From positions 10,963,625 to 11,027,624 of the forward strand of contig CM082579.2 of assembly GCA_040954595.2 (NCBI GenBank): a DNA stretch of 64,000 bases, in the 5' to 3' direction. Below, one piece after another: positions 12,050-64,000 of the stretch. The stretch is from Balanoglossus misakiensis. Its lineage: Eukaryota; Animalia; Hemichordata. The number at the start of each line of letters is the position of its first letter. The stretch's first letter is position 1. Position numbers and translations under genes: made by a program. The notes below the pieces were generated by a model. The model saw nothing but the letters and a program-made list of their open reading frames with translations. It ran no database searches and had not been told where the DNA came from.

Positions 12050-12250
12050 AAATCTCTAATTAAGTGGACAGAACTTTAATTATGCCGGACAAAACTCCTA
12101 AATTGATGGACACTACTATAACTTTGTCGGACAAAACTCTCTAAATTTGTCAGACACAACTCTCAAATTGATAGACACAACTCTAATTTCGCCTGACACA
12201 GCCCTTTATTTGTTGGACACAACTCTAATTTTGATAGGCGCAACTTTCAG
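12050..12250. repeat. Degenerate ~21-bp minisatellite (GGACA(C/A)AACTCTAAATTT-like, about 9 units)
   Basis: Recurrent GGACA/AGACA-nAACTCT-AATT units. Confidence 0.7.
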
Positions 12251-39344: not shown

Positions 39345-39941
39345 ATGGCCGAGTATATGTTCAAGGTTGAGTTTTCCTATTATTATCAAACGCGGATTGT
39401 GCCAGTCTTCATTTCTGACGAGGACTTTCACAGTATGTCTTATAGCGACTTCGAAAACAGAATCACTAGTGATACTCCGTATCTGCGAAGGATGGTCTCA
39501 CTTCGTCTGCAAGTCATGGATTACGAAGGGCAAAGAATTGACCTTCCGACGACAAACAGATTCAGACAACTTATTGACGACAACGCATCTAAAAAGGGAG
39601 GAACACTCAACGTGAAATTGTTCGTTCTCGACGGTACCTCGCCATCCATAAAACGTTCACATTCTGGTGATTCTGAGATCGATCACTGTACTCCACAGAG
39701 TCATTCTATTGCGAGTAAAAGAACGCGAACTAAATTGCAGTACGCTCAAGATGAAAGGGGACCGGAAGTCAACAAACTGAAGCCGACTGATGGACCGACC
39801 ATAGAAAACCGCCGCGATGTACTTGGTGAAAAACTAGACACTCTGACTAAAGCAAAAATTGTCATGGAACGAGAACTGACTGACCTAGCAGTTCGAAGAC
39901 AGAGAGCAAAAGGGAAGGACTGGACACGCACGCGTAGATAA
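39345..39941 (+). CDS. Intronless 198-aa ORF with PB1/ubiquitin-fold-like N-terminus and coiled-coil tail; possibly a transposon-derived fragment
   Basis: Good Kozak context (CAACATGG). FKVEFSY...SYSDFENRI...LRLQVMDYEGQRIDL resembles the PB1 pattern (K..f...l.y.DeeGd.i.l). C-terminal LGEKLDTLTKAKIVMERELTDL is helical. Confidence 0.45.
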   Translation: MAEYMFKVEFSYYYQTRIVPVFISDEDFHSMSYSDFENRITSDTPYLRRMVSLRLQVMDYEGQRIDLPTTNRFRQLIDDNASKKGGTLNVKLFVLDGTSPSIKRSHSGDSEIDHCTPQSHSIASKRTRTKLQYAQDERGPEVNKLKPTDGPTIENRRDVLGEKLDTLTKAKIVMERELTDLAVRRQRAKGKDWTRTRR

Positions 39942-40260
39942 AAGTCTTGCTTTAGCAAGCAATGTGAAGTGTAAGACGATCCTCTTACGACACCCGTAAT
40001 ACCCCACTGTTAGTATTGTAATCAATCTCGATATAACCTCTTTGAATTTACCGCAACATCAACAACTGGGCGCCGAAACTGAAGTAAGATAAGGAACAAC
40101 TTGGCAAACCAAATGTGCAAGTATGGTAACATTTAGATCAACATTATCGTTCGAATCCAGATGGGAACGATAATTCAGTTTCATTTGTTTCGTCTTGGAC
40201 TGTCTGTGACTACACGCCTACATACATGCATGTCTGTCTGTCTGTATGGCTGGCTGGCTG

Positions 40261-45413: not shown

Positions 45414-46454
45414 TTATCAGACTGGGTGCAGCAGTCCAACAAACAGCGGGCTTTGTATTGACTTTGTGGACGGGCAGGTGTATTAATGACTCACAGACGA
45501 CTCGCATTGCACGTACACGTATTGGGTTTCCGAGAAGCAGACGCGATAGCACACCACTCGTTTCGTGTGTACACAGGATAAAGGCTTCATCATTACTGAG
45601 TAAGGGTCAGGATTAGACTAGCCCACTAGTCGCTTGGTGATTTTTAAATCTCAATACTTTTTTGTGTTTTCGGTGGTTTTTTGTCTTAATAAATAATTTC
45701 AATACTTTTTTGCGTTCATGCTTGCCTTGAGCGTGTTTTTGGTAGTGAGGTGAGTTTCGAATTTGGGACTGAGCTTGTGGTTTCGGGTGGCGTCGGCCTA
45801 CGCGCTCCGTACACATAATGAAGCCCATAGACTTTGAGCAAGTCTAGGTCAGGATGCATTGCACAACCTATCAGTGAGGTCTATGTTTGCGTGGATTCCT
45901 GTATTAATGCCATAATCGGTCAGAAATTGTTTGCTAGCAATTGTGTACATTGGCCCTCGCCCCCGATAGTTTACTGCCTGTCCCTCTCATAGTTGCTGTC
46001 GCTGCGGTCCATCACGTAGACAGTCATTCAATCAATATTTAGTAGGTCACATGATCAAGAACAGTTTGTAGGCTTAGTTGCCCTGAAAATCATTCCATTA
46101 AAAGTCATTCCTGCATTTACTTTTCTGTCGAGTCATTAATTCATTAAACTCCGGTATAGTTTCGAGTTTTTTATCATTATAGTGTGACAGTGTAGGAAAT
46201 GGCGGAAATAAGTCCACAATCAAAACTTAAATTACCGTACGGGATCATTGTGCCATATAAGGGTTATTCACAGTGCTCTAGAATTAACGTTAATTATTTG
46301 AAAGGACAAAATGAAAAAATAGATACATAGTCTCGCAAATTAGAGTGTATTATCATGCTATAAGAAGCATATAACTTTCATCTGTCTGTCTGTCTGTCTG
46401 TCTCCCTCTCTGTCTCTCTCTCTCTCTCTCTCTCAGAACTTCATCACAACAGTC

Positions 46455-49400
46455 ATGACTTGGTTCATCGTCGCTCTTCTGGTCGCCGTCCTCTCATCGC
46501 CCTCTACGGCAGCCACTGTGAGATGGCATGAAGCTTCCAGTGGAAATTGGCATGACGAATCCAAATGGAGTCTTGGTCGTGTACCCACCGCTGAAGATGA
46601 CGTTGTTATTGACCTTGGTAGGCGACTTTAATTCATATTCCTGTATCCACTAAGCTCTTAAAATATGGTTCTAAACACACGTATTAAAATCCCACTTGGC
46701 TGTGTTTATGCATTTTTCTTTTTACAATGTATCATTTTCTCTCACAGTTGTCAAAATTGGCCTTTAGCAATGTAATCCTTTACCGGTTACTGTCGCCTAT
46801 GCAATCATTAACTGGACATGAGAATAACCGCATACGACTGTCTGTCTGACAAATAATATCAAAATATCCGATAGACATACTCCAACCCCCCCCCCTCTTT
46901 CCTCCTCAAATAATTCTGGTTAAATTGAACCATGTTACAACCAACACAATGCATGGCTTACATTAGCATACATTTTGGATTTTTTATACAGATGGGTCAT
47001 ACCAGGTAACAGTCAATGGGGATGCCACAGTCACGTCTATATACATGCCTGTAGATACTCCGACACTGCATATTTCTAGAATACTGCGTGTCCATGGCAA
47101 CATTGACGTAAACGGTGCATTGATTTTGGATGCCAGCAGCAACCAGGAAGATGGTCTCTATGTGGATGGCAAGGCTTTTTTCAATGGCGACTTCAACTGG
47201 AGAAATGGCCGCTTGAAGAGCAGCGGAAACGGGCAGGTAACGATGAATGGAATGCTCCAAATCACTCCACCGAGCAGTTATTATTATAGTCACCCCAGAG
47301 TTCGCGTGGAAAAGATACAAGTCACGATTGGCAACGTCGCCATATTGGACGGAAACACGATGTATTTCACCAACGACGGTCACTTTACTGTCGCGGAGGG
47401 CGCCGTTTTCAACATGACCAATTCTCCCAACTTGGCCAGCGAAAGTGGCGGCACCCTACTCAACCAGGGAAAGGTTTACGTGAAATCCGCCAGCACGACA
47501 ACTGTAGGGGTGAACGTCCATAATTTCGGCACGGTTGCTGTAGAAGAGGGCACACTCGCCCTTGGCGGACAGACGACATGGGAAGGCGCCCTCTCAGGGT
47601 GGCAGGACAGCCAGGTTACTTTCAACGGGGGGCGCCACACCTTTCGCAGCACCAGCAGCCTTCTCGGGATTCGCACTGTACGGGCACAGTCACAGGCGCA
47701 AGTCTTGTTTTCATGTCAGAGAGTGGAAGCCAGCGAGATAGAGTGCGAAACAGGCACAATCCGAATCGAGCAACTGACCCAATTAGACCTGCAAGGACTC
47801 ACACTGTGGAATGACGCTCGTTTCGAACTATTCTTGACGAAAGATGGCGAAGCAGGCACTCTCCAAGTTGACGAGATAACTGTTCACTACGCAGCGAGTG
47901 TGACAATAGTGGGAGACCTATCTGTGAACAAGTAAGGACTCGTCAATCACAGATTTTTGTACATAATTTTCTCTCCTGCTTACCCTCCTTAAATTGATGC
48001 AAAATAGAAGTTTCACGTTGTTCGCCAGCCATGTCCTCAAATTTCACAAACTGTTCTCCCTATATGCTATATGTTATTGCACCAGTGTAAATGTTGCGAA
48101 CATTCATGGTAAACTGCTTCAGAGCATTGGAATTGTAGCATAAACAAACTTTGAGTTGAAAAGTCTCAATGAAAGGAGAACATGTTGACGCCTGTGGAAT
48201 GAATTTCATGTGTTCACGATTGTTCTCTACTTTGTTTTGTTGTTTCTCTCCTTCAGATTCAACCTTGAACAAACTGCTAATCGTGGTGGTGTTTTTGACG
48301 TGACTGGTCAGGTGACAATATCTAAGCAGTGGAAGTGGACCGGCGGAGTGATTCAGTGTACAGGTCAAGTAATCGTTGAGGGCGATGTTTCCATTGAGGG
48401 ATCTTCAAGTTGGTACAAGTACGCGCGGAGGGCGCAGTATATTTTCAGAAAGAAAGTTGTACTGCGCACGTTGGCAAGAGTTCACTTGGAGTCAGATGCC
48501 GAGTTTTTCAACGACGTAGGCAGTGAGTTCGTGGTCACTTCCACCAGCGGGTCCCTTGGTGGGGGCGGCAGCTTTGAGAATCGTGGGACTTTAATCTTCA
48601 ATACATACGAGACCACAACATACCAACTGGACCTGGCCAGCTTTAAGAACTTGGGGTCTGTGCGGGTTGAATCCTCACCCTCCTCAGTTTTTAAAATTTC
48701 TGCAGTTGTCACGCCTTCCGGCACTTTCTACATTGACACCGAAAACACTCTGATATTTTTGGGAGAAAGTACAATGACGTCAGATGGTGTTTTCCACGGC
48801 CCTGGAACTTTGCAGATCCAGGGCAACAACTACGAATTCCAGTCGGTAGATGTAGAGAACCTTAGAATCGAGGGAGGCTCTCTGTTCGTTCCTGCATCAG
48901 AGGCCAGTGGCGCACAGCAGACTCTGCCAAATGTTGTTGTTACAGCGGGAACGTTAACCCTACCAGTGTCAGAACAGCCACTACTGATCAAGGACTTGCT
49001 CATCTCTGGCAACGGAAAGATTCTGACAAACAGACAAACCAACATTATGTCACTGCAGATGTCTGGTGGGACCCTTGGAGGGAATGGCGATATCTCGGTA
49101 ACGGATCTATTCGTGTGGGAATCCGGAAGAATAGAAGGGGAATCTGGTCACCGATTGATCATCGAGCGAGATTTGCAAGTCTCTACTTCCAATGATAAGA
49201 TCATTCACCGAGACTTGGTCGTGAGAGGCAACGTGACCTGGGTCGCCACCGATTTCGACGTCACGATTGAAGGGAAGTTTACCATCGCTGAAGAAGCTTC
49301 TCTGAGAATAATCGGCGACCGCATGCTTATTAACAGCGACGATCCTGGGAGGGGGGTCATGGAAAATTACGGAAATCTGGAAATAAACACGCCCTTCGGT

Positions 49401-52400
49401 AGTTTCAAACTGGATGTGGAATTCCGCAATTTTGGGAAAATAACCGTGGTGTCTGGAGACATAGAGCTTCTGTCGAAAGTGACATGGATTGAAGGCACTG
49501 TGGAGTTTTTGGACCTGGCGAGCTCTGTCCTGGTCAAAGGTGGTAGCCATACAATTACCCCAGACACTTATCCAGAACAAGGATTTGGAAAGCTATCGGT
49601 AAGTGTTGTGTTATCACCTTGTGTTAGCTATCTTTGCTATAGCGCCCTCGCTCGCCCCTTGATTTCCAGTGTATGTAACCCTGCAGTTACTCTCACTCTC
49701 TTGCTGTTTTCATGGCGGACTGTATAGGCACAGTCGCGCACGTGCAATAATAGTCAATCCAGGTCATCCTGTAATTGTTAGGGGTAATCACGTTCTAACG
49801 TTTTGCCTAAATTATGGCCTCTGTGAGATAGTTGCCTGTTACTCAGACATGATGTATTCTCGTCAACAGCGAATGATAGTTATTTTCTGGAAACACCTGC
49901 TCTTTTCTGGCTATCCATATTCTTCAATTCCTTTTCTTCACTTTCAGGTGACTGACGCAAACTTACAAGTCATTGACTGCAACTGGGCGGAAGTGACGAT
50001 CAACAACAGGGCGGATGTCAACGTCACCTATCAGTCAATCATCCAACCCGTGATGGAGAAATTGGTCGTCACCGGCGGTGAGGTGACCATCAGCGCCCTC
50101 ACCGAAGGCAGTCTGAGAATCAGGGATATCACGTGTGATGACGGGAAGGTGACGTTCTATGGCGACGTCATAGCTACAAAAGTGACAATAAGGGGCGGTG
50201 TCATTGAGAACCAAGACAAGTTGGAAATTGTTGGTAATCTGTTATGGATGGCTGGCGTCATCCGAGGCAGTCAGTTTGGTCAGGTTGGTATCCGAATGAT
50301 AGAATCATGTTGTAAGAGATGGAGATACCTGTCGTTACAATCATCAAGGGCTTACGGTGTGCTTACTAACCATTGACCTCCATGGTCTTACTGAAGACTG
50401 AACTTATTTTTTACCTCCACCACCAGGCTAAAATGAGCATCTTTGGGACAATCAGTATTTTGGGCGAGACAACCAAACGTCTTGAAGAGCAGCTCCTTGA
50501 AATACACACTGAGGGTGTATGGTTTGGTGACGGGGAAGTTGTTATGAGCAAGTCTACCAGTCTTATGATCATGCCCGGTGGAACATTTACCAGCAAGGCA
50601 TCAGGTAGTAATTCTGATGTAGAGATATATAGTTGCCCAGATTGAACTATGCAGTTAATACTTATCTAAATGACACTGTATACGTACTGTTGGTATAATT
50701 GCACATACGCTGGTAACATTTAACAAACTTATTTTACCTGTAGATGGCGTCTTCAGGGATGATGACAATACCAATGTAATCAGCAACCGTGGAATGTTCA
50801 CCATTGACAGCCGATCGTCGACAACGTCGTACGTCCGATTTGAAAATGAAGGCGTTCTTCAAATTTCTGATGATGCATATCTTGCACTCAGAGGTAAGTT
50901 ATTTTAATTGATGATAGCATATTAATTAATATTCTATTGGACAACTACATGCAAGGAATTTATCCCTCCATCTGCCTGTGTTTAATGTATGGTTGCATGC
51001 ATGCATGCATGCATGCATGAATACATAATACATAGATCTGTCCATCCATCCATAACTTCCCACATCACCATTTCGGTTCACAGGAGACAGTCGGTCCAGT
51101 GGTCAGGTGACAGTTGCAGAAAATGGTACCTTATATTTCCGTGGTGGGTATCATCGTTGGTATGGTAACCCCGACACTGGCCTAGGTATGTTTTTTGTTG
51201 GATTATATCTATTTGGCTCCAGGTCAACTGGTCATTCATATACGTATTTCTTATACTACCGGGTAATGATTACTGCTTCATTCGACGTTGCTAGTAAAGT
51301 GCATGGTGATATTGGTTTGTAGTGTATTCATGATCATCCAGCTGTCTGTCAGAAGTTGAAGTGATGTGGGATTGAAGTTGTTAATGTTAATTTCAATGTT
51401 CCTTGGTGGCAAATTCCCTTACATGTTTGCTGTTTGTTTAATTTCAGTTGAAGGCAATATCTCTGTTGCTGACGCAGAAGTACACATATTTCATTTCAAC
51501 GTGCCTGGTTACCTTGACGCAAAGGAGCATGGGAAGTTGATAGTAGTGACCAATCTTGCAGAGCAGAGATTCAATTCGATCCGAATTAGTGGAGGGGCAA
51601 TGGTAAACATCAATAGTGTGAAGAAGGCAGCTCAGTATCACATCACTGATGTGTCAATCCAATCTGGAACGTTACAAGTTGCCGGTGACGTGACAGTAGA
51701 TGAGGCCATTTTGCTGGAATCTGATTCTTACCTCGTTCTCCCCAAGTTTGCAAACTTAAGCTTACTGGAATGGTGGGGTGGGACGATTGAAGGTAATCGA
51801 GACACTCGCATGGAAGTTAAGACTCTGGTCATGAATGGAAGATGGGACAAGAAGCTGACTCACAAGGTGATGAATCTTAAGGATGACGCATCGGTTGGCG
51901 GGACCGGAAGCCTTACCTTACAAGGAGACTCCACCTGGGATATCGAAAGTACTGCTGAGGTCAACATCTTGTCTGACATGGTGATCAGATCCGAGAAAGG
52001 GAAAGTTCACAATAATGGACAGCTGAATATCGTACTGAGATACAGTGGAAGTTCTAGTGTTGTTAGCATTGAAGGCAACTTTCTCAACAGTGGGATGTTA
52101 TCATGTAAAGAAGGAGCGAAACTCCAAGTGTCTGGTGCATCACAAGTAGATGGGCAAATAGAGTTGTTACGAGAGAGTTCTATCGAATTTTCCGATGGAG
52201 AACACATGCTACTTGCCTCGTCGTTGGTCCAGGGAGAAGGAACCTTAAAAGTGGATGGACCAAGTACGCTATATTTGAAATCACCAGGCATCCAAGTGGG
52301 GACCGTCCATGTTTTTTCAGATTCTGCCACTATAGTCATTGAGACACCAGAAGTCCACCTGGAAGACGTCATTGTCGATGGCATACTCAGAATTACTGAA

Positions 52401-55400
52401 GACAGTGTCAGCTTTGGAACCGTAACTGTAAATGGTGGAACTGTAGCTGTACTGAAAGACACCGTGATCGACCATGTCGTTTTCAACAGTGGAACCATCG
52501 ATCTCAGTGCCAATATGGACTGCAATAACTTTAACTGGGATGGTGGTGAGATCACTGGCAAGGGAACATGTACATCCCAAAACACACAGATGCGAGAAAT
52601 TCGACAACTGAGTTTGAGCAAGGCAGTGCTCAAACTAAATCAAACTGCTACGTTTCAGTCCGGCTTTAAGCAAGCATTGTACATCAATAATGGTGGTACT
52701 CTTGTAGTTGAAAATAACGCCATATGGGATATTTATGAAGAAACCGACTTGCGAACATCTTCCAACTTACATAATGAACTCGTCAACAATGGGGAAATTA
52801 CTTTTCACAAGCCATCCAAAGTTGGCATGAAGGTTACTAATGATGGCGTCATGAAGTCCTATGGGAGTGTCCTGGATTTTGAGCATGATGTGAATAATTT
52901 TGGAAAAGTTCAAATCAGTGAATACACCAACATGAAAACTCGAACATTCTTCTCTGATGGCGGTTCAACAATATCCGGTAATGGTTCCTTATCAATCGTC
53001 AGTGGATCCTCAAAGTTTTCTCCGAGTATTCTTGAGGTCAGTGAAATTGAAATCCAAGGTGGAACAGCTGATTTTGAATGGAGAGGCAGCACTGGTCGGA
53101 CACTGAAGTCACTGAGTGTGCTCGATGGAACCATTGCATTACACGCTGCACATGACGTCCAATTAATGGTCATTGAAGTGAAGGTGGAAGGCGGACGATT
53201 GAATCTTGGTGTTGGTGTCGAAGTTGCCAATCTTTCCATGACCGCTGGCACCTTGGAGATAAGAAATAACCTGAATATCGACCGATTGGACTTCTCTGGG
53301 GGCACAATCCAATCCCTGTCTTCCGAGACATTTTCTGTGACAACACAGGACATGTTTCTTCACCACCACACTGACACCCAGAAGAAGCTCCAACAAATTA
53401 GCATGAAAGTAGCTCGCAGAGGATCTTGGGAAGAGATCCCTCTCATTGAAGACGTATTCTGTATAGAAAACAGCGGCAAGTTGGTTATTTTGGAAGGTGC
53501 AGTTTTCACCATTGACGGAATGCGGCATGTTGACAGGTGCAGTGGTGTTGGCGTTGGTGTCATTAATAACTATGGCATCTTTGAGATTATGGAGACCAGC
53601 TCACAAGCCCCCAGTGCAGTTTCACACTTCAAAACTGAAGCTGACTTCCGCAATTATGGATCTCTTCTATTGGATGCAAACAGTAAAGTTTCATTCTTGG
53701 CAACAGCGTCGCTGGATGGTGCGTTCTCCTCTGGGGTTAATACCAGCGTTGAATTCAGAAATCACCAAAGTTCAAGCGATTTGAATATCAACTGCACGTG
53801 GCTGCTGGTCGCAACTTCGAAAGTTGTACTCGCCCAACCAGTCGCATTGGATTCAATCACTCTGGAAAACAGTGATTCAACTCTTGTTCTGACAAATCGT
53901 AATGATGTAAAAGAATCGAACTACAACGTCGGAACTGTGAGTATCACTGGCGGTACACTGGATCTCAGAGAAAATGTGAACATTGGCTACTTGGACATGT
54001 CTGGCGGTTCCCTAACAGGCCACACATTGGAATCAGACGTGATACATGTCTCGGTAGTGAAAGCTGACCTCCGAGATACATCTGCCATCAGGCATGTGGA
54101 CCAAATAGCTTTTCAAGAAGTCAACATGTATGGACCAACAGTGACTTTTGACTCGAGCAACGTGTTCTTCACTGAAAAGTCAACCATAATGACCAAATTC
54201 TTACTGGATTTGTCTAATGGGGCCAATGTCACCAACGGAGACAATTCCCTCATGCAAGTCAGCGGACAAACCATCGTCGATAAATGTACCGGGGAAAACA
54301 AGTGTTCGTTCTTCAACAATGGCCGCATTACTGTTGATAGTCCAAGTTTTTCAGTTCTTGCATACTTCTACAACAGTGGGCTTGTTGAGGCTATTGGTGA
54401 GCGAGTTAGCATAGATATTGTGATGCCCGAAGATCAAAACGAGGTTGGCACCTATGAGATGAATGGACCTAAGAACAAGTTAACATTCAATGGGCCGTAT
54501 GACGAACTCGGTTCATCGAGTTACAACGGACAGACAGAAATAGACGAACATTCGTATTTCAATGATGGGACCACTTTGGCAGTCACTCAAGGAACAGTGA
54601 AGATCACACCAGTGTCGGGCAGATATGATTCTATCACTGATGGATTGAACATTAAAGTGGACGGTGGGAAAGTAGTGTTCAATGACTCAATGGTCGGACG
54701 GGGATCACAGTTGAAACTCAAATCATTAATTGTTAACTCCGGAGAAGCCATCCTGGACGACAATCTTTCACCAATTTCAAGAGTGGAACTCAACGGTGGC
54801 ACTCTACTGGGCAGTGGAAAAATTGAGAAATTCTTCTGGAGAAACGGGCATATCCAGGATGCAGCAGTTGATATTGATGATCTCACCATGTACAGTGGAG
54901 ATCAGAAGTCCATTGCTGCGAGTGCTATCAGCATCAAAAGTCAGCTGACCAACAGATTTTCCAACACCTTGATGCTGTCAACGGAATCGCGCATAATTAA
55001 TGACGTCACATCAAACTTCTCAATCACGGCTCCTCTCACAATCAACAGTGGTGATGATGACCGCGATGTTCTGATGAACAGAGGTACACTATTCATCTCC
55101 ACAGTGTTGGAACAAGAAGCAGTCTTTGACGTCTCGTTCAACAGTACAGGAGATATCGAGATTCTAAGTGGTGCACTAAGGCTCGTGAAAAACAGCTTGC
55201 TTTCGGCATCTATCAAAATGAGCCCTGGCACGAGACTACAGTTTGATGATGGAGAACACGAGCTAACAGAGTCCTCGTCCGTATCGGGAAATGGGTATCT
55301 GAATGTCCAGGACTCCGCTCTGGTGACATCGTCAACAAACAACGTTAACATCGACAAATTTGAATCATCTGGAAACTCGTTTCTGAAAGGTAGGTGTGTT

Positions 55401-58400
55401 GATTATCAACATGTGCTCACTCGAGTAATAAATTAACTATAATTGAGATGTCAGCCGTGTTGTCATGGCTGATTCGAATGTACACCTGGTCCTTAAAACA
55501 CACATTATTTCCTTATTGCATTTACATGCTGCGATGCTACTAGTGTGTGATACGTGGTCATTTTGAGCAATAATGAAACAGCATTTGATGAACGTGACGA
55601 ATGCCAGAACTAAGTATGTAAATGCCCTTTCATTCTCCAGGATCATCTTGCATTGATATAATGCGTTTACACGATGGCTCAATTGAACTGAATGGTGGAC
55701 TTGCAGCCAATGATGGCATAAGTATTGGTAAGTTCTAGTTCTGGATGTCACTTGACCGTATGTCTGGATTTTCCATTCAATTTTAGCCACTGCAGTGAAT
55801 TTGCGTAAAGATGAAGAAGAGAAATATAAGAATGACATGACTGCACGTGGACACTTTCATAATGTTAGTGTTAGCAAGAAATTTCCATCTGGATGCGCAT
55901 CATTGATTCCTAGAGACACGGTATAACAAGTGCTCTGACAAAGGGGTCGTTTAGCATCATACAGTGTACAATATAGCAGACCACTAACTGTGCTGTATTT
56001 CATATGTGTAGGGTCCTTAGAGGTGTATGGAGGCACCCTGCAATGCCCCGGGATTGCCGCCATCAATGGCCCTGCCCTACTTACGTCCGGTCAGGTATTC
56101 GTAACTGGGTCACTATATGCCAATGGGTATCTCCAAATTGGCGATGACGTCACAACTATAGGGAACATAGAACAACCGCAAGGTAGGTGCATTGAGGCAT
56201 GGTTTAAAGCGTGACAATCTTTATCCCCACTCCCCCATTATTACACGCGAGTCATCTAAGCTTTTGAACAATATAGTATGTTAAAACACGCCCTAGCATA
56301 CCACAAATGCTGACAGTTTTATCGCAATTCCTTTCTGCAGATGCAAGTTGTAGTGGAATAACGGACTGCAGTTCTTGCATATCACCATGCACGTGGAACC
56401 CAAGTACAAACCTGTGTGTCAAGCAGAGTAAAGCTGGGCCCCTACAATGCTACCAGGCAGACTGTTCAGCAGGTATAAACTTGATATCACTTATTTCAGT
56501 TGCGTGTATTATTAAACAATTCCAAACCAGAGACAAAGGAATAGCTCACCAAACACCTACCGCACCATCCTTGAACATGGCACATTGTCACTCCAGACAA
56601 AACAAAACAAGACAGATCTTTAACAATGGAGTTGATGATAAAGAGAGACGGACACAGTTATGTTTATATGGTCGTGGTGATTCTTGGTAAATTTCTATCT
56701 CACAATTGACGAGGCACGTGGCAATCTGGAAGTGGTTTATGAGGTTAATAATGTGTGGACTGTTGTGTTATCACCCTGTGTTAGCTATCTTTGCTATAGC
56801 GCCCTCGCTCGCGCCCTGATTTCCAGTGCATGTAACCCTGCTGTTACTTCGCTCTCTTGCTGTTTCATGGCGGACTGTTAGACACAGTCGCGCACATATC
56901 TTCATAATAAATAGTTGTGTTTACTTGCAATAAGTCAGTCCTGGTCATCGATCCACCCCACGGTCTCCCGAATAATAATAGTCAATAACATAACATGGTG
57001 TCAGGAAAGGTGACTTAGCCGACAACTAGAAACCGTCGCTGGAGTAGTGATCAGAAGAAACCAACGGACTCGACTGCACAGAACATTGCCAGGTATTGTA
57101 ACACACACTGAGACGCTCTCCGCGCCGAAATCGAAACAGCATCAGCATGGCAGAATTAAGTGGTCTCCCAACACCACAGATGGACTGGAACTCTGACGAC
57201 CCAGTCACTGCACTCACAAAGTTTAAAGACTTGTGTGAGCTGTACTTTGATGGTCCATTAGCGAACCTAGACGACAAAAGAAAACTCAGATATCTGCTGA
57301 TCTGGATTGGTCAAGATGGTCGTGACATACAGAAATCATGGGGACTGAAAGGCGATTCCCTGAACGATCTCGCCAAACACTGGGAGATGTTTGAGGCATA
57401 TGTGAAGCCACACAGCAATTTTCGAGTTGCCAGATTCAAATTGAGAAACCTGAAGCAAGAAACCGATGAAACCGTGGACAGCTTCATGAAACGAATCAGA
57501 CTCATTTGTGCTGATTGTAATTACAAAGAGCCTAACGAACACATGTTAGATACACTCATTTATGGCATCAACTCACGTCAAGTACAATTGAAATTGCTTG
57601 AGAAAGGCGAAAAAACAACGCTACAAGACGCCATACAAGTATGTCAGCGACACGAGGCCACATCTCGTCAACTGAATGACATCAATAGCGCTGAACCAGA
57701 GACAGTTCACGTTATACACAGATCCCGTGGTGGAAAACCGAAAACCCACAGAATGACTAGCGCCAAAAAGCGTGACACGAGGTCACCGCCTAGGTCACCA
57801 ACCCAACCCTGCCGGAATTGTGGTAAATCTCATAAACGGGAGGAAAGATGCCCTGCCCGTGGATCAACCTGCCGAAACTGCGGTAAGCAAAACCATTGGA
57901 TAAAGATGTGCAGATCAACTCGCTCGAGAGTAGCACCGAGCACAGTGAAGTCAGAGCCGACTACTCGTGTTCACACAATGAAAGAGACTGACTCAGGAAG
58001 TCCAGTCAACGCTGAAGCAGCTACTGTTTACTTTCACACGGTTCACGAAGACCACAGCTGTCAGACCGTTACCCATAGCAACCGTAGCGACAAGCAAGCC
58101 TTCGTCACGCTCAGCGCCAGATCCGATTACAAAACAAAAGCCATCAAGTGCAAGATAGACACTGGTGCAGAGGGTAATGTCATGCCCGCCTCAGTATACC
58201 GAACACTGATTCCCACTGAAGAAAACGAATTGGTTGGATTACAGCCGTGTCAATCCAGACTGATTGCGTTCGGAGGTCACACCGTTGAGCTTTACGGTAC
58301 GTGTTACCTCACACTCAAACACCGCGACCAGACTACGCGCTGTTTATTTCACGTGAGCAAAGCCGAAGGACCGGTACTACTCGGTTTGCCAACCTGCAAC

Positions 58401-61400
58401 GCATTGCAGCTAGTGACATTTCACTATAACATCGATGTGGTAGACGACAACACGGTGTCCGACACTGTGTCCAACGCGTCATCGCAACGCGGCAGACCAA
58501 AGGGCGATCCCATAGCGCGTGAGAAAGTGCTTGAACAATACGCGGATGTATTTCAAGGGATTGGCTGCTTTGAGGGCAAATATCACATCGAGACTGACCC
58601 GAACGTACCGCCCGTGGTACACCCCCCGCGACGCGTTCCGTACGCTCTCCGCGATGCGCTCAAAGAGGAGTTAGACTCGCTTGTAGAAAAAGGAGTACTG
58701 AAACCGGTCACACAACCGACTGATTGGGTCAACAGTTGCGTCTGTGTCACAAAGAAAAACGGCAGAATCCGCCTCTGCCTCGATCCGAAAGATTTAAATC
58801 ACGCGATCAAACGTCCTCACTATCCTACCCCAACGTTCGATGAGATAGTAAGCCGCCTGCACGGTGCAAAGTGGTTTAGCATTTTAGATGCTCGCTCCGG
58901 GTATTGGAACATACCGCTAGATGACGAGAGCGCCCTACTCACAACGTTCAACACACCGTTTGGTAGATACTGCTACCGTCGATTACCGATGGGCATAAAG
59001 TGCGCCCAAGATGTCTTTCAAGGACAGATGGATAAGCTATATGGTGACATCCATGGCGTGTCCGGAATCTCAGATGACCTCATAATCGCAGGCTGGGACG
59101 CGGACGGCCATGATCACGATGTCGCGCTTCGCCGCGTACTACAACGCGCACGAGAGAAAAACGCACGCTTCAACGACGAGAAGCTAGTCGTACGATGCAA
59201 ACGCATACCATTCTACGGTCACATCATCGGAGAAGATGGTATCTCGCCCGATCCCGCTAAGATATCAGCGATCAGGGAGATGGACCGCCCAGCTGATAAG
59301 AAAAGCTTACAGAGCTTTCTCGGTATGGTCAACTACCTAAGCAGATTCACGCCCTGCTTAGCAGACCTAACGGCACCGTTACGCGACCTTTGTAAACAGG
59401 ACTCAGAGTTCCTGTGGGGTCCAGAACACGACCGTGCATTCACGCGAATCAAAGCAGAGATGTGCGCAACACGCAATCTTCCGTTTTACGATCCACACAA
59501 ACCGCTGACGTTACAAGTAGACGCGTCCAGCCGAGGCCTAGGTGCATCGCTTATTCAAGACAAACGCCCAATCGCGTTCGCGAGTAAAGCACTGACGGAC
59601 ACAGAAATGCGCTACTCGAATATCGAGAGGGAAATGTTAGCCGTGATATATGGTCTAGAGCGTTTCCACGAGTACGTATTCGCCCGCCACGTCACAATCG
59701 AGACAGATCACCGGCCGCTGGTGAGCATCGTAAAGAAAAACATTGTGAATGTTACATCGAGACTAGCACGAATGCTGCTACGCATGCAACCATACAACTA
59801 CACGCTAGAGTACGTCACAGGGAAATGCGTCCCGCTAGCTGACGCGCTATCACGCGTTGATCCCAAAGCCGGAACAACAGTCGAAGGTCTCGACATTACA
59901 GTACATCAGATGAACCTGAGTGCTTCGCCCGCTCGACTCGATCAGTTCCGCGAAGAGACCGCCCGCGATGTTGAGCTAACCGCGCTTCGAAACATGATAA
60001 TGACAGGTTGGCCAGACACGCGCGCCGAGTGTCCAACTCACTTGCTTCCGTATTGGACATTCCGAGAAGAATTAGGTGTAGCGGATGGAGTCGTCATCAA
60101 GGGTAACAGAATCGTCGTACCCAAGTCATTACGCAAAATGGCGCTAGAGAAGATTCATCTCGCACACCAGGGCATAGAGAAATGCCGGCTACGCGCCAAA
60201 TCTGCAGACTATTGGGTAGGCATGAACAATGACATTGAACAAATGGTACGCAAATGCCCAACGTGCCAAAAGCACCAAAACTCGCTGCCCAAAGAACCGC
60301 TGCACTCATACGACGTGCCACCCGGACCATGGCACACGCTATCAACCGACTTGTTCTACTGGGAACAATCAACATACCTATTGGTAGCCGACCAGTATTC
60401 TAAATTCCCACTGGTACGCAAACTGAGCAACCTCAGTTCGAGATCGATCATCAACCACATGAAAGTGATGTTCGACGAGCATGGAATATGCCATCGCTTG
60501 ATTTCTGACAACGGACCGCAATTTGATTGCAAGGAATTCAAAGAATTCGCGAGAAACTACGGATTTGAACACATCACGAGTTCACCTCACTTCCCGTCCA
60601 GCAATGGCTTCATCGAGAAGCAGGTCGATACGGTGAAAGATCTATTCACGAAAGCCCGCGAGACAGGCACTGATCCGCATTTAGCTATGCTATGTCTGCG
60701 CACAACGCCAATTGATCACAACTTGCCGTCGCCCTGCGAGATGCTGAATTCACGCATGTACAAGTCAAACCTACCGGGCAGGATGCCACACAATGCAAGC
60801 CGCCATAGCGAAGCATTACAACGCAGTCAAGACGTGTCCACAAAACGCTTCGAGAGCAACCGTCCCCTGTCCGAGCTGAAGCCACACCAATCCGTCCGTG
60901 TGCAACACCCCGTCAACAAGACATGGGAACCAGGCAAAATCATCACGCGCACCGCTGAACCGCGATCTTATACAGTAGAGACATCGCGAGGTGTGTACAG
61001 GCGTAACCGACGCCACATCAGGCCTACTGCAGAGATCTTCCGTGATGTAGACCTACGTACGCGCCGTCACGACAACGACATCACCGTAGATGTACCGGGA
61101 CCAGCCAGCACTGCAAACTCCACACCCACGAAGGAAAAACAACACCGCTGCGTTACGTCGTTCACAGCGTACGATCAGGAAACCAGAGCGCCTAGACTTG
61201 TGAACTCTCATGAGCTCAATCAGTGACACTTCAGTTATGAGTTCATTCATTGAAAGACATTGTTATTGACATTCACAAGTTCAGATTTTGCCAAACTGTG
61301 TTCTATCACTTTTTCTTACAAAGGGGGATGTTGTGTTATCACCTTGTGTCAGCTATCCTTGCTATAGCGCCCTCGCTCGCGCCCTGATTTCCAGTGCATG

Positions 61401-64000
61401 TAACCCTGCTGTTACTTCGCTCTCTTGCTGTTTCATGGCGGACTGTTAGACACAGTCGCGCACATATCTTCATAATAAATAGTTGTGTTTACTTGCAATA
61501 AATCAGTCCTGGTCATCGATCCACCCCACGGTCTCCCGAATAATAATTAAGCAATAAAACACCCCCAGCCATGGTATACCACAAGATTTTGACCAGTTCA
61601 CGACATATACGCACGAGCGATAGCAAGTGCGTATATGGAGTTGAACTGGTCAAAATCGAGTGGTATACCATGGCTGGGGGTGTTCTATTGCTATTATATT
61701 ATGCCAGTATATTGAAACTTTGCATAAAACATTTTAAAAAGGCATTTTCTTTGACTATGATATATGACTGTGGTATATGGCTAATATATCACGGTCACGT
61801 GTCGTGTCTCGACCAATCAAATAGCGTGATTTACACCATCAATATACTGGTATAATATAATAGTCAATAACATAACATGGACATACTGCAGAATCATGTG
61901 TTAGGTGTAGAGAAAATAGATGTGTCTATTTGCTCAGTCAAGATCAATTTCTGTATTCTCTTTTCCATAGGCACCCTTTGTTATGCGTATGATTCTGAAA
62001 CCACGTGTACAACAACCAGTGAATGTGTATGGTGCAGCTGGTCCCATCATTGTGTTCCCCAAGATTTGTGTGTCCAGTCAGAGGATTCGGTGTTTTGGGC
62101 TGACATCAATGGCGGTGAATGGAATACGGAAAGCAGCTGGTTTAACTCCTCAGCACCGAGTGCAGACAGCTCGGTGATCATTGGTCACCATGCCAACGAC
62201 TACACCGTCAGAGTTACATCAGATACAACAGTGAAAGACATCGTGATAGGAGTACCATGTGACGACCGTAGGGTTCCCATGTGTGACCATGTCCAGGAAT
62301 TGTCCATAGACAGCACCTTGACAGTGACGAACAACATTGTGGTTCACAAAAATGGACACCTTGTACTTAAAGGGACCCTCTCGGTTGGAGGACTCGTGAC
62401 GGTTTATGGGAAAATGACATGGAGATGGGGGACTTTGACGGGAAGCGGTAATTTAACAGTTATCGGCACACTTGATGTCTTCAATGACTGGTATCACTAC
62501 TACAGATACACACACAATGTTCTTGAGATGCGAATAGAAAACTATGGTGATATGCACTACAGGAACACGCGAAATAACCTTGTGATGAATGAAGGTGGCA
62601 TCATAACAAATCAAATATCGGGTGTATTTTATGTGAGTAGTACATGGCAAGTCCAGTATGGTATTCTCTACAATTATGGAAGAGTGGTTGCCGATATAGG
62701 AGGAGAGATACAGTTCGGGCCCAAAATTTACAACTATGGCACTGTTGAAGTTGACGCTGGAAAAGTGAAGTTGGTGTCGGGACTGTTTTCAAGTGGAGAT
62801 ATTTCTTTAGCGGACGGAACAGAACTGTTGCTGATGGATGATGTGTACGACATCAAAAGTACATGTAGACTAGTGGGGCACGGTGCTAAACTGTCTGCAT
62901 CCGGCGCTACTGTGAATTATGAATCTGAGACATTCACTATCAGTTCTCTGTCGGTGGTGGCAAACAGCATCTTCAATGTGGACAGCACCATTCAAATGTC
63001 GTACATGTATCTGGACTATCGTGTAGTTTTGGGTGGAAGCGGCAGCATCATCATTGATGATATCTTGGAGTGGAAGGGAGGATCCATTGAGGGCGATAAA
63101 GACATCGTTGTCAACGGAGAATTGAGACTTCTGTATCCAGAACGGTACAGTTACAGGCGCATCAAAGCTATAAGCGGAGGCCATCTTAGGTTGAAAGGGC
63201 ATGTTTCCATCGCTGCAGATGACATTGTTTTACAGCTATCAGCAAATGCAACTGTAGACTTCGATACAATGTCCCGCGTGTACGTCACTCAGTCGAAACC
63301 CTTCACAATCCAATCGGATTCAACAAGGTGCCGAGTCACCAATTATGGAAACATGATCATAGATGGAACAATGTCGCTGTCTACAGACTTCCAGAATTAC
63401 GGTAACATTTCTGTTGAGAAAGGTAGGATGTACCTCAACAGAAATAGTTATTTTGTAACCGGTCAACTTCAAACCTTCTCTACGGGCACATTGGAATTCC
63501 AAGGTTCGAATCACGCGTTCCTTGCTGATGCGCATCTCTTCCTTGAAGGACATCTATATATGAAAGCACAGTCCATGGTGATCAACTCAAGTATGTGTCA
63601 GTACATCGGGGATATCACTTCAACATCTGGTATCATTGAAATAAGTGACCAATCGGATGTTAGATCTATTGGAACAATAAATTTATATCAAGCAGAACTG
63701 TTTCTCCAATCACTATATGAAGGTGGAGTTAACATAAAGCATGCTGAATTGAGACGGGATGGTAAATTATATTTGAAGACATCATCGAAAATTGACACTG
63801 TCAGATTCCCTGAATACAGCTACACAGGGTATCTTTATCTTGGATCACCAACAAATAGCTATGAGGTGTATGGTGCTATCAACTGGGTCAACGGATATGG
63901 ACAGATTAAACCAGAAACTCCATCTGAAATTCCAACTTTAAAAGTGACAGGAATGTTTTCTCGGAATGGCCGCCAGGATACGTACATAGTATCAATTAAC
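46455..64000 (+). CDS. Giant secreted/surface beta-strand-repeat (autotransporter-passenger-like beta-helix) protein with PSI-like Cys modules; runs off the window end
   Basis: Signal peptide MTWFIVALLVAVLSSPSTA followed by ATVRWHEASSGNWHDESKWSLGRVPTAEDDVVI. Approximate exons: 46455-46617, 46992-47931, 48257-49598, 49948-50283, 50428-50603, 50744-50893, 51083-51186, 51448-55389, 55640-55727, 56012-56182, 56341-56472 and 61971 to beyond 64000. Recurrent W.GG.I.G, N.G.l.i and v.GGtl motifs. Cys modules CSGITDCSSCISPCTW and CTTTSECVWCSWSHHC. Confidence 0.85.
49604..49768 (+). mobile_element. Solo/partial LTR of the same Ty3/Gypsy family as 56761-61877
   Basis: TGTTGTGTTATCACC...CATGGCGGACTGT...CACAGTCGCGCAC is nearly identical to the first ~135 bp of the LTR at 56761. 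The 3' part is deleted or diverged. Confidence 0.9.
57147..61226 (+). CDS. Gag-Pol polyprotein, 1359 aa
   Basis: Two CCHC knuckles, protease IDTGA, RT (LDARSGYW...LPMG...ISDD), RNase H (VDASS...EREML...TDHRPL), integrase H-H-C-C and D-D-E (TDLF, SDNGPQF, NGFIE), in Gypsy order. Confidence 0.97.
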   Translation: MAELSGLPTPQMDWNSDDPVTALTKFKDLCELYFDGPLANLDDKRKLRYLLIWIGQDGRDIQKSWGLKGDSLNDLAKHWEMFEAYVKPHSNFRVARFKLRNLKQETDETVDSFMKRIRLICADCNYKEPNEHMLDTLIYGINSRQVQLKLLEKGEKTTLQDAIQVCQRHEATSRQLNDINSAEPETVHVIHRSRGGKPKTHRMTSAKKRDTRSPPRSPTQPCRNCGKSHKREERCPARGSTCRNCGKQNHWIKMCRSTRSRVAPSTVKSEPTTRVHTMKETDSGSPVNAEAATVYFHTVHEDHSCQTVTHSNRSDKQAFVTLSARSDYKTKAIKCKIDTGAEGNVMPASVYRTLIPTEENELVGLQPCQSRLIAFGGHTVELYGTCYLTLKHRDQTTRCLFHVSKAEGPVLLGLPTCNALQLVTFHYNIDVVDDNTVSDTVSNASSQRGRPKGDPIAREKVLEQYADVFQGIGCFEGKYHIETDPNVPPVVHPPRRVPYALRDALKEELDSLVEKGVLKPVTQPTDWVNSCVCVTKKNGRIRLCLDPKDLNHAIKRPHYPTPTFDEIVSRLHGAKWFSILDARSGYWNIPLDDESALLTTFNTPFGRYCYRRLPMGIKCAQDVFQGQMDKLYGDIHGVSGISDDLIIAGWDADGHDHDVALRRVLQRAREKNARFNDEKLVVRCKRIPFYGHIIGEDGISPDPAKISAIREMDRPADKKSLQSFLGMVNYLSRFTPCLADLTAPLRDLCKQDSEFLWGPEHDRAFTRIKAEMCATRNLPFYDPHKPLTLQVDASSRGLGASLIQDKRPIAFASKALTDTEMRYSNIEREMLAVIYGLERFHEYVFARHVTIETDHRPLVSIVKKNIVNVTSRLARMLLRMQPYNYTLEYVTGKCVPLADALSRVDPKAGTTVEGLDITVHQMNLSASPARLDQFREETARDVELTALRNMIMTGWPDTRAECPTHLLPYWTFREELGVADGVVIKGNRIVVPKSLRKMALEKIHLAHQGIEKCRLRAKSADYWVGMNNDIEQMVRKCPTCQKHQNSLPKEPLHSYDVPPGPWHTLSTDLFYWEQSTYLLVADQYSKFPLVRKLSNLSSRSIINHMKVMFDEHGICHRLISDNGPQFDCKEFKEFARNYGFEHITSSPHFPSSNGFIEKQVDTVKDLFTKARETGTDPHLAMLCLRTTPIDHNLPSPCEMLNSRMYKSNLPGRMPHNASRHSEALQRSQDVSTKRFESNRPLSELKPHQSVRVQHPVNKTWEPGKIITRTAEPRSYTVETSRGVYRRNRRHIRPTAEIFRDVDLRTRRHDNDITVDVPGPASTANSTPTKEKQHRCVTSFTAYDQETRAPRLVNSHELNQ
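61548..61861. mobile_element. 314-bp non-autonomous element with two adjacent internal inverted repeats, inserted in the 3' LTR (possibly Crypton-type)
   Basis: Absent from the 5' LTR. IR1 is 61550-61582 vs 61660-61692; IR2 is 61691-61714 vs 61840-61863. No terminal inverted repeats or clear TSD. Confidence 0.75.

What the first reader, a model, noticed from the sequence alone, without database searches (positions are those of the whole stretch)
46455..64000. Giant bacterial-adhesin-like beta-helix protein in an animal genome
Seen: more than 3200 aa in this window alone, with a signal peptide, a W....GnW.d...W..g.vP...ddV.I cap and long Gly/Val/Ile/Asn/Thr beta-strand repeats in unusually large exons (one of ~3.9 kb). 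From recall, this cap-and-repeat style is typical of bacterial autotransporter-passenger-like or very large surface proteins and some protist surface proteins; I do not recognise it as a named animal family. Inference: an old horizontally acquired or patchily retained adhesin fused to metazoan-type PSI modules.
Basis: partly seen in the sequence, partly recalled or inferred. Interest (0 to 1): 0.7.

Follow-up and report, generated by a model that had tools for sequence, protein, structure and literature searches.

The report
Ancient giant secreted animal beta-helix rod
This is an intron-containing animal gene, shared with an acorn worm, amphioxus and a sponge, for a very large protein built from a repeat also found in bacterial proteins; it is predicted to be a secreted two-armed beta-helix rod that likely works as an adhesive or cross-linker in mucus or matrix.

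Summary
The gene is real: 12 exons with GT-AG introns give 3,191 stop-free codons, open at the window end. It is 63-64% identical to a Ptychodera flava gene, and collinear with amphioxus and with a complete 4,759-aa protein of the sponge Oscarella pearsei. Layout: signal peptide, cap, about nine ~260-aa repeats, a PSI-like cysteine hinge, a second cap, about nine more repeats, a C-cap. Two full-length relatives end without a membrane anchor. AlphaFold gives confident beta-solenoids that best match pertactin and UpaB (Z 19.9, 17.1). A profile from bacterial-type repeats finds 10 units at 18-67 bits against 2.8 for shuffles. It is not fibrocystin and not an autotransporter. Repeats match by position between sponge and window, so the family is at least as old as the sponge-bilaterian split; trees cannot give donor or direction. 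A polymorphic gypsy element fills intron 11 and is not part of the protein. Function is inferred, not shown. I found no paper on the family in the searches run.

The parts
46455..46617 (+). Exon 1: start codon, predicted signal peptide (about aa 1-19), first Trp cap (aa 24-54)
   Evidence: cap profile 60.5 bits
46992..47931 (+). Exon 2 (aa 55-368), repeat unit 1
48257..49598 (+). Exon 3 (aa 368-815), units 2-3; AlphaFold model pLDDT 82.8
49604..49758 (+). Truncated LTR copy starting 5 nt into intron 3; donor GTAAGT kept
49948..50283 (+). Exon 4 (aa 816-927)
   Evidence: junctions align without a jump to P. flava
50427..50604 (+). Exon 5
50744..50893 (+). Exon 6
51084..51185 (+). Exon 7
51448..55389 (+). 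Exon 8, 3,942 nt (aa 1071-2385), about five repeat units; two unnamed relatives lose similarity at its last codon
55641..55727 (+). Exon 9
56012..56182 (+). Exon 10, end of the first solenoid arm
56341..56472 (+). Exon 11: first PSI-like cysteine module, between two phase-1 introns
   Evidence: Pfam PSI 22.5 bits, cut-off 23.1
56761..61877 (+). Gypsy-type LTR retrotransposon in intron 11: LTRs 98% alike over 219 nt, 5-bp target duplication, primer site, polypurine tract, one 1,374-aa gag-pol ORF (57102-61226); absent from contigs of two runs. Not part of the protein
61545..61870 (.). Very high-copy short element nested in the 3' LTR
61971..62095 (+). Start of exon 12: second PSI-like module
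   Evidence: Pfam PSI 18.4 bits; six invariant Cys in alignment A3
62096..64000 (+). Rest of exon 12: second Trp cap and start of the second solenoid arm, open at the window end; AlphaFold model pLDDT 86.5

Best explanation
The window holds the first 3,191 codons of a spliced animal gene, collinear with acorn-worm, amphioxus and sponge proteins, whose product is predicted to be a secreted rod of about 4,800 aa: two right-handed beta-helix arms joined by a disulfide-bonded PSI-like hinge, likely acting as a non-enzymatic adhesive or cross-linker in mucus or extracellular matrix. Shown: gene structure, orthology, repeat and cap homology with bacterial proteins, no anchor in two full-length relatives. 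Predicted: fold, secretion, N-glycosylation (21 sequons). Inferred: each arm is a stiff rod of roughly 50 nm (from recalled rise per residue of bacterial beta-helices); caps at both ends seal the helix; one exposed loop per repeat, often Tyr/Trp/basic in animals, gives many weak binding sites for glycans, partner molecules or microbes; the hinge lets two arms bridge two surfaces. Origin: the repeat module is shared with bacteria and was already expanded and fixed before the sponge-bilaterian split; it probably survives patchily.
For: Gene; flat depth with half-depth alleles and contigs across exon-intron borders; empty-site contigs join intron 11 across the element; 17 of 31 displayed exonic variants synonymous against 23% expected, none a stop. 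Orthology: one alignment covers aa 19-2916 against Oscarella 15-2875, E 7e-85, and aa 1177-3177 against Branchiostoma, E 3e-156; same-position unit is the best match for 5 of 10 window units in Oscarella (13 candidates) and 6 of 6 that have a counterpart in Branchiostoma. Fold. No anchor: C-cap profile hits the last 130 aa of Oscarella (36.8 bits) and of unnamed P0017 (21.3), best shuffle 4.3. Non-enzymatic: invariant columns in A1, A3, A4 are Gly, Trp, Cys, Asn and a few other uncharged residues, no Asp, Glu, His, Lys or Arg. Loops: Tyr+Trp 57 of 990 in the loop against 444 of 12,941 in units, p 1e-4; bacterial-type 3.0 against 2.3%, p 0.12.
Against: No binding, localisation or tissue data. 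The last third of this gene lies outside the window, and the P. flava model stops inside the C-cap (5.9 bits only), so an anchor in hemichordates is not excluded. Foldseek found no match at E under 0.001 (best 0.05, TM 0.2-0.3), and a shared beta-helix fold says nothing on function: tailspikes and lyases score Z 11-17 too. The loop enrichment rests on few, non-independent loops (4 of 10 in the window). Positional matching is weak for P0017 (3 of 10) and some bacterial units score as high as sponge units (206, 193). The hinge is poorly modelled (pLDDT 44-56).
Confidence: 0.5

Rival explanations
1. Same rod, but mainly a microbe-binding agglutinin or food-capture protein of suspension feeders, with variable surface loops.
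For: All three named hosts are marine suspension or mucociliary feeders (feeding mode from established knowledge). Fold resembles adhesins. Seven amino-acid-changing differences cluster in 62617-62708 of one allele.
Against: The loop at aa 2688-2696 is identical in P. flava, which argues against fast diversification; only one gene copy was seen; the allele changes are mostly conservative.
Confidence: 0.2
2. It is the ectodomain of a membrane-anchored receptor, with the anchor encoded beyond the window.
For: PSI domains usually sit in receptors (established knowledge); the C-terminus is not in the window and the P. flava model is cut short.
Against: The Oscarella ORF is marked complete and ends at the C-cap; unnamed P0017 ends likewise; the best internal hydrophobic 19-mer (1.87) lies inside the C-cap.
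Confidence: 0.12
3. It is a glycan-cleaving or -modifying beta-helix enzyme, like polysaccharide lyases, GH28 or tailspikes.
For: Such enzymes appear among the fold matches at Z 10-17.
Against: No invariant acidic, basic or His residue in three alignments; no enzyme family in Pfam or NCBIfam; 18 divergent repeats suit a spacer or multivalent surface.
Confidence: 0.1
4. Origin rival A: one transfer from a bacterium into the stem of animals or their close relatives, then fusion with the PSI-like exons and loss in most lineages.
For: N-cap, repeat and C-cap are all shared with bacteria of several phyla; 82 animal-type units form one side of a branch in FastTree, next to Sphingomonas units; the hinge exon has phase 1-1 borders.
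Against: IQ-TREE splits the animal units (3 changes); long branches may attract; an unnamed EGF-hinged relative (P0039) hints at a wider eukaryotic range.
Confidence: 0.5
5. Origin rival B: inherited from a much older eukaryotic ancestor, the bacterial likeness being deep homology of a G8/Amnionless-capped beta-helix class.
For: P0039 has the same two-arm plan with an EGF hinge; animal plus EGF-form clade not rejected, p 0.25; caps of relatives weakly hit Amnionless and G8.
Confidence: 0.4
6. Bacterial contamination or a mis-assembly.
For: Likeness to bacterial proteins and very long exons.
Against: Eleven GT-AG introns, LTR insertions in two of them, flat depth with heterozygous bubbles, contigs over exon-intron borders, animal orthologs far closer than any bacterial protein.
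Confidence: 0.01

Closest known systems
Uncharacterised animal orthologs: P. flava XP_070561913 + XP_070561910, B. belcheri XP_019631531, O. pearsei EP00118_P004640
   Same: Collinear sequence (64/63%, 25%, 22%), same caps, hinge and repeat order
   Different: None has a described function; the P. flava gene is split in two models, one auto-named 'CdiA-like' although no toxin domain was found in it
Unnamed bacterial cap-repeat-cap module (Calditrichaceae NUQ44224, Okeania WP_293138047, Sphingomonas WP_440490455, Verrucomicrobia, Methyloversatilis two-partner-secretion proteins)
   Same: Trp N-cap, 195-270-aa repeat with WxGG and NxG motifs, C-cap
   Different: Bacterial modules hold 3-9 units that cluster within each protein and sit among Ig, cadherin, Calx-beta or sorting domains; the animal protein is two long arms and a Cys hinge, with units fixed by position
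Autotransporter passengers and TpsA adhesins (pertactin, Vag8, UpaB, EtpA, antigen 43)
   Same: Predicted right-handed parallel beta-helix; best structural matches, Z 15-20, rmsd 3.8-5.5
   Different: 7-12% identity, no significant sequence or Foldseek match, no barrel, no PATR or TPS domain
Animal beta-helix proteins: fibrocystin/PKHD1L1, TMEM2/CEMIP (G8 domain), amnionless
   Same: Extracellular beta-helix; caps of some relatives weakly match G8 and Amnionless profiles. Amnionless has two right-handed beta-helix domains (PMC6283879, passages read)
   Different: No IPT/TIG or G8 hit in the window exons, no TM; the window's own caps do not hit these profiles at E 1; no sequence match to their solved chains
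Plexin/semaphorin PSI domain
   Same: Cys spacing; Pfam E 1.4e-4 and 2.7e-3; plexin-B1 PSI is the top PDB hit of profile A3, E 0.3
   Different: Below the curated cut-off; no sema or IPT neighbours

Membership tests
Fibrocystin / PKHD1L1 | IPT/TIG repeats before the beta-helix | tested here: not met
   No TIG hit in 8 window exon pieces or in P0001, P0007, P0008, P0017, P0037
Fibrocystin / PKHD1L1 | G8 domains | tested here: not met
   No G8 in window exons at E 1; only sub-threshold hits in P0009 (E 0.005) and P0039 (E 7e-4)
Fibrocystin / PKHD1L1 | C-terminal membrane anchor | tested here: not met
   Absent in full-length P0037 and P0017; the window's own C-terminus was not available
Classical autotransporter (type Va) | Right-handed beta-helix passenger | tested here: met
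   Predicted models match pertactin (Z 19.9, rmsd 3.8, 368 aligned) and UpaB (Z 17.1, rmsd 4.2, 305 aligned)
Classical autotransporter (type Va) | C-terminal beta-barrel translocator | tested here: not met
   No barrel family in P0001, P0017 or P0037; these end at or in the C-cap
TpsA / CdiA | N-terminal TPS domain and C-terminal toxin | tested here: not met
   No such family in P0007, P0026, P0001, P0017, P0037; the RefSeq name 'CdiA-like' is not borne out
Amnionless | Amnionless profile over its length, with SEA and TM parts | tested here: not met
   Only profile positions 7-44 of 442, in relatives and below cut-off; none for the window cap
G8/Amnionless-capped beta-helix class | Cap structurally homologous to G8 or amnionless helix 1 | tested here: inconclusive
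   Weak profile hits in relatives; the cap was not folded and searched on its own
PSI domain | Pfam PSI score above 23.1 bits | tested here: inconclusive
   22.5 and 18.4 bits; Cys invariant from sponge to window; model poor there
Beta-helix glycan enzymes | Conserved catalytic Asp/Glu/Lys/Arg/His | tested here: not met
   None invariant in alignments A1, A3, A4 of 8-9 rows; these cover only part of the protein
Horizontally acquired gene | Nesting inside a bacterial clade in a supported, rooted tree | tested here: inconclusive
Adhesin | Binding to cells, glycans or itself | not testable with these tools
   Needs binding assays

The most novel reading that the evidence does not exclude
An undescribed family of ~4,800-aa secreted beta-helix rods, taken from a bacterial surface-protein module before the sponge-bilaterian split, hinged with animal PSI-like exons, and kept mainly in marine suspension feeders as a structural or microbe-trapping part of their mucus or matrix: a second case, beside teneurin, of a bacterial adhesion or conflict protein built into early animal surfaces.
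Probability: 0.3. Interest if true: 0.8.

Novelty: new variant of a known kind. Interest (0 to 1): 0.6.

Why it matters
Animals have few beta-helix proteins, and those compared here use the fold in one or two domains. A protein of nearly 5,000 aa made almost wholly of it, with the same plan in a sponge, amphioxus and acorn worms and no family in Pfam or NCBIfam, would be an overlooked part of the ancestral animal extracellular toolkit. It offers a test of whether bacterial surface proteins were recruited at the origin of animals, and a candidate for the material of mucus-based feeding. It also shows an annotation trap: the P. flava gene is split and half of it is named after a bacterial toxin.

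Tried and rejected
No whole genome is held, so the C-terminus and paralogs could not be read. Self-BLAST finds no repeats. Pfam and NCBIfam give no family above cut-off for the solenoid. PDB sequence searches: nothing under E 0.18; amnionless, TMEM2 and fibrocystin are not among the listed fold matches, which does not exclude them. ESM Atlas: best 0.80 and 0.88, leads only. No RNA holder listed; the only transcript support is the transcript-style, 'complete' Oscarella record. A DNA scan for related loci could not start for lack of a conserved stretch. The viral fold library was not reached. Alignment A2 put relatives out of register and was dropped for A3. Earlier findings of this scan: none. 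Rejected: contamination; the gypsy ORF as part of the protein; CdiA toxin; fibrocystin; a recent, lineage-specific transfer. No complex was predicted, since no partner is known. Literature: searches and the accession search 95 found no paper on this family; the two supplementary files of PMC4729200 held as text lack six relevant terms, but further supplements, and most subscription papers, were not searched.

Full report
Observation. Long + strand frames at 46967-47935, 48189-49727, 51360-55436, 57102-61226 and 61871-64000 stand out. Reading splice sites by eye gave 12 exons from ATG 46455; all 11 introns are GT-AG with pyrimidine-rich acceptors, and the joined frame runs 3,191 codons without a stop to the window end. 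Seven of the junctions could be checked against the P. flava N-terminal model and align without a jump; the rest lie inside a 1,661-column alignment with 2 gap positions. The 57102-61226 frame is gag-pol of a gypsy-type element (RT, RNase H, integrase) with LTRs, primer site, polypurine tract and a 5-bp target duplication. Contigs of two runs of one sample skip exactly these 5,122 bases, leaving a 376-nt intron, so the insertion is polymorphic and exon 12 belongs to the gene. Depth over 46367-56642 is 42-95 in run X1, mostly 43-60, with half-depth alleles, and contigs cross exon-intron borders; X1 may be the source of the window and is not independent. Of 31 exonic differences among the displayed rows (40 of 187 and 40 of 95 rows were shown), 17 are synonymous against 23% expected, and none makes a stop.

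Relatives. Four protein searches were run; the three word-based ones scored only about 7,990 candidates each. Named animal hits: P. flava in two pieces (64% over aa 5-1433, 63% over aa 1531-3191), B. belcheri (25%, E 3e-156) and O. pearsei (22% over aa 19-2916, E 7e-85). The window is therefore probably an acorn worm (inference from identity). Adding the P. flava remainder predicts at least 4,833 aa; the full-length relatives have 4,759 and 4,740. No vertebrate, insect, nematode, echinoderm or cnidarian name appeared, but with six unnamed records and limited searches, patchiness is likely, not proven. The best bacterial match to the model is Sphingomonas at E 1e-18, far below the sponge.

Anatomy. 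A profile was built from 15 repeat units: 5 from named bacteria (Calditrichaceae, Okeania) and 10 from four unnamed records assumed prokaryotic. It finds 10 units in the window protein at 17.8-67.3 bits, mostly about 260 aa apart, against a best of 2.8 bits in 50 shuffles and the reversed sequence; it finds 18 in P0017, nine in each half. A cap profile from 22 bacterial or bacterial-type records scores the two window caps at 60.5 and 28.1 bits; a C-cap profile from 9 such records hits the last 130 aa of Oscarella (36.8) and P0017 (21.3), P. flava only in part (5.9), best shuffle 4.3. Neither full-length relative has a hydrophobic tail. Between the arms lie two PSI-like modules just under Pfam's cut-off, with six Cys invariant from sponge to window in the part aligned.

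Fold. AlphaFold2 with 8-row alignments gave pLDDT 86.5 for exon 12 and 82.8 for exon 3, nearly all short strands. Foldseek ranked autotransporter and TpsA helices first but none at E under 0.001. VIA-align against 48,161 chains put pertactin (Z 19.9, rmsd 3.8, 368 aligned), Vag8 (18.0) and EtpA (17.8) first for exon 12, and UpaB (17.1, 4.2, 305) first for exon 3; left-handed LpxD-type chains align only at rmsd 12-13. Handedness is read from these matches, not from coordinates. Tailspikes, lyases and fungal Awp adhesins follow closely, so the fold does not give the function.

Age and origin. For each window unit I asked which unit of a relative scores best. The same-position unit won 5 of 10 times in Oscarella (13 candidates; 8 units have a counterpart; binomial p 1e-4 to 5e-4), 6 of 6 in amphioxus, 5 and 4 times in P0010 and P0011, but only 3 of 10 in P0017. 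The repeats were thus expanded and diverged before sponges and bilaterians split, and a recent transfer is excluded. Two unnamed records of 21-23% identity lose similarity at the very codon of intron 8, one of them also starts at intron 7, and two others stop just before the hinge near intron 10; I infer shared intron positions, without seeing their DNA. Trees of units are weak. FastTree on 195 units put the 82 animal-type units on one side of a branch, next to six Sphingomonas units. IQ-TREE on 66 units (units under 150 aa and the unnamed animal-type and P. flava rows left out, most bacterial proteins thinned to three units) needed 3 changes for the animal label. AU tests reject neither an animal clade (p 0.26) nor animals plus the EGF-hinged P0039 (p 0.25). 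Donor and direction stay open. Simakov et al. (PMC4729200; passages read, two supplementary files searched by term) raise the same two options, transfer or repeated loss, for genes shared by deuterostomes and marine microbes, and the terms searched did not show this family there.

How it likely works. Inferred: the protein is exported, glycosylated (21 sequons) and folds as two capped rods. Capping matters because open beta-helix ends tend to aggregate (PMC6283879, passage read). With recalled dimensions of bacterial beta-helices the whole would be near 100 nm. Invariant residues are structural, with no charged or His residue, which argues against an enzyme. About 20-35 residues after each WxGG motif lies a loop that is short in bacteria and richer in Tyr/Trp in animal units (5.8 against 3.4%, p 1e-4); two such loops are the low-confidence dips of the exon 12 model (61 and 67) and one is identical in P. 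flava. I take these as repeated binding sites, so that a hinged two-armed rod cross-links glycans, matrix, copies of itself or microbes. I give this 0.5, an agglutinin or feeding role 0.2, an anchored receptor 0.12, an enzyme 0.1. The identity and fold claims are much firmer than the function.

Comparison and novelty. It works like a bacterial beta-helix adhesin in shape, but fails membership of autotransporters, TpsA/CdiA, fibrocystin and amnionless. The cap may belong to the wider G8/amnionless class (weak). Paper searches (listings and abstract starts only) and accession search 95 found no description; the library lacks most subscription papers. I rate it a new variant of a known kind: known fold and an unnamed bacterial module, in an animal family that appears undescribed. 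Interest 0.6.

Neighbour. Head to head, about 10 kb upstream, lies a spliced teneurin-like gene. Its last exon scores higher against two 'Teneurin-like protein' chains (280 and 272 bits) than against vertebrate teneurins (241), passes the Rhs core cut-off, and keeps two Asp 24 residues apart with an Arg 13 before the first, then a 146-aa tail without Tox-GHH. PMC13018210 (passages read) gives the same spacing for the catalytic residues of a bacterial teneurin-like protein and says the motif is absent in mammalian teneurins. This deserves its own follow-up; whether the two genes share an origin was not tested.

Noticed in passing
window 13027 to about 36100, minus strand: Spliced teneurin-like gene (TM segment, EGF, NHL, YD shell). 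Its last exon keeps the Rhs self-cleavage set (Arg, Asp, Asp at the spacing of a bacterial teneurin-like protein), scores higher with 'Teneurin-like protein' chains than with vertebrate teneurins, and ends in a 146-aa Gly/Cys tail with no Tox-GHH. Possibly an animal teneurin that still releases a C-terminal domain.
   Followed up: partly
window 22916-23878, minus strand: Gly/Pro-rich stretch with 21-nt tandem units inside an exon of the teneurin-like gene.
   Followed up: no
window 56761-61877: Young gypsy-type element with one uninterrupted gag-pol frame, several copies elsewhere by depth, absent from the empty-site contigs of two runs; a very high-copy short element sits in its 3' LTR.
   Followed up: yes
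window 49604-49758: Truncated LTR of the same family 5 nt downstream of the exon 3 donor; two insertions of one family in one gene.
   Followed up: partly
window 62617-62708: One allele carries seven amino-acid-changing differences in about 90 nt of exon 12, mostly conservative.
   Followed up: partly
window 28100-32000: Foldback-like element: long inverted arms (570 nt at 98%) made of ~169-nt subrepeats, in an intron of the teneurin-like gene.
   Followed up: no
window 39045-40170: 94-nt inverted repeats around a 225-aa ORF with no family match; probably a DNA transposon remnant.
   Followed up: no
window 12074-12243: Degenerate 21-nt tandem array.
   Followed up: no
P0039 (unnamed NCBI record): Same two-arm plan, with a C-cap and EGF repeats as the hinge in place of PSI-like modules; may be a non-animal eukaryote.
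   Followed up: partly
P0007 and P0001: The P. flava ortholog is split into two RefSeq models, one named 'CdiA-like'; the second stops inside the C-cap.
   Followed up: yes
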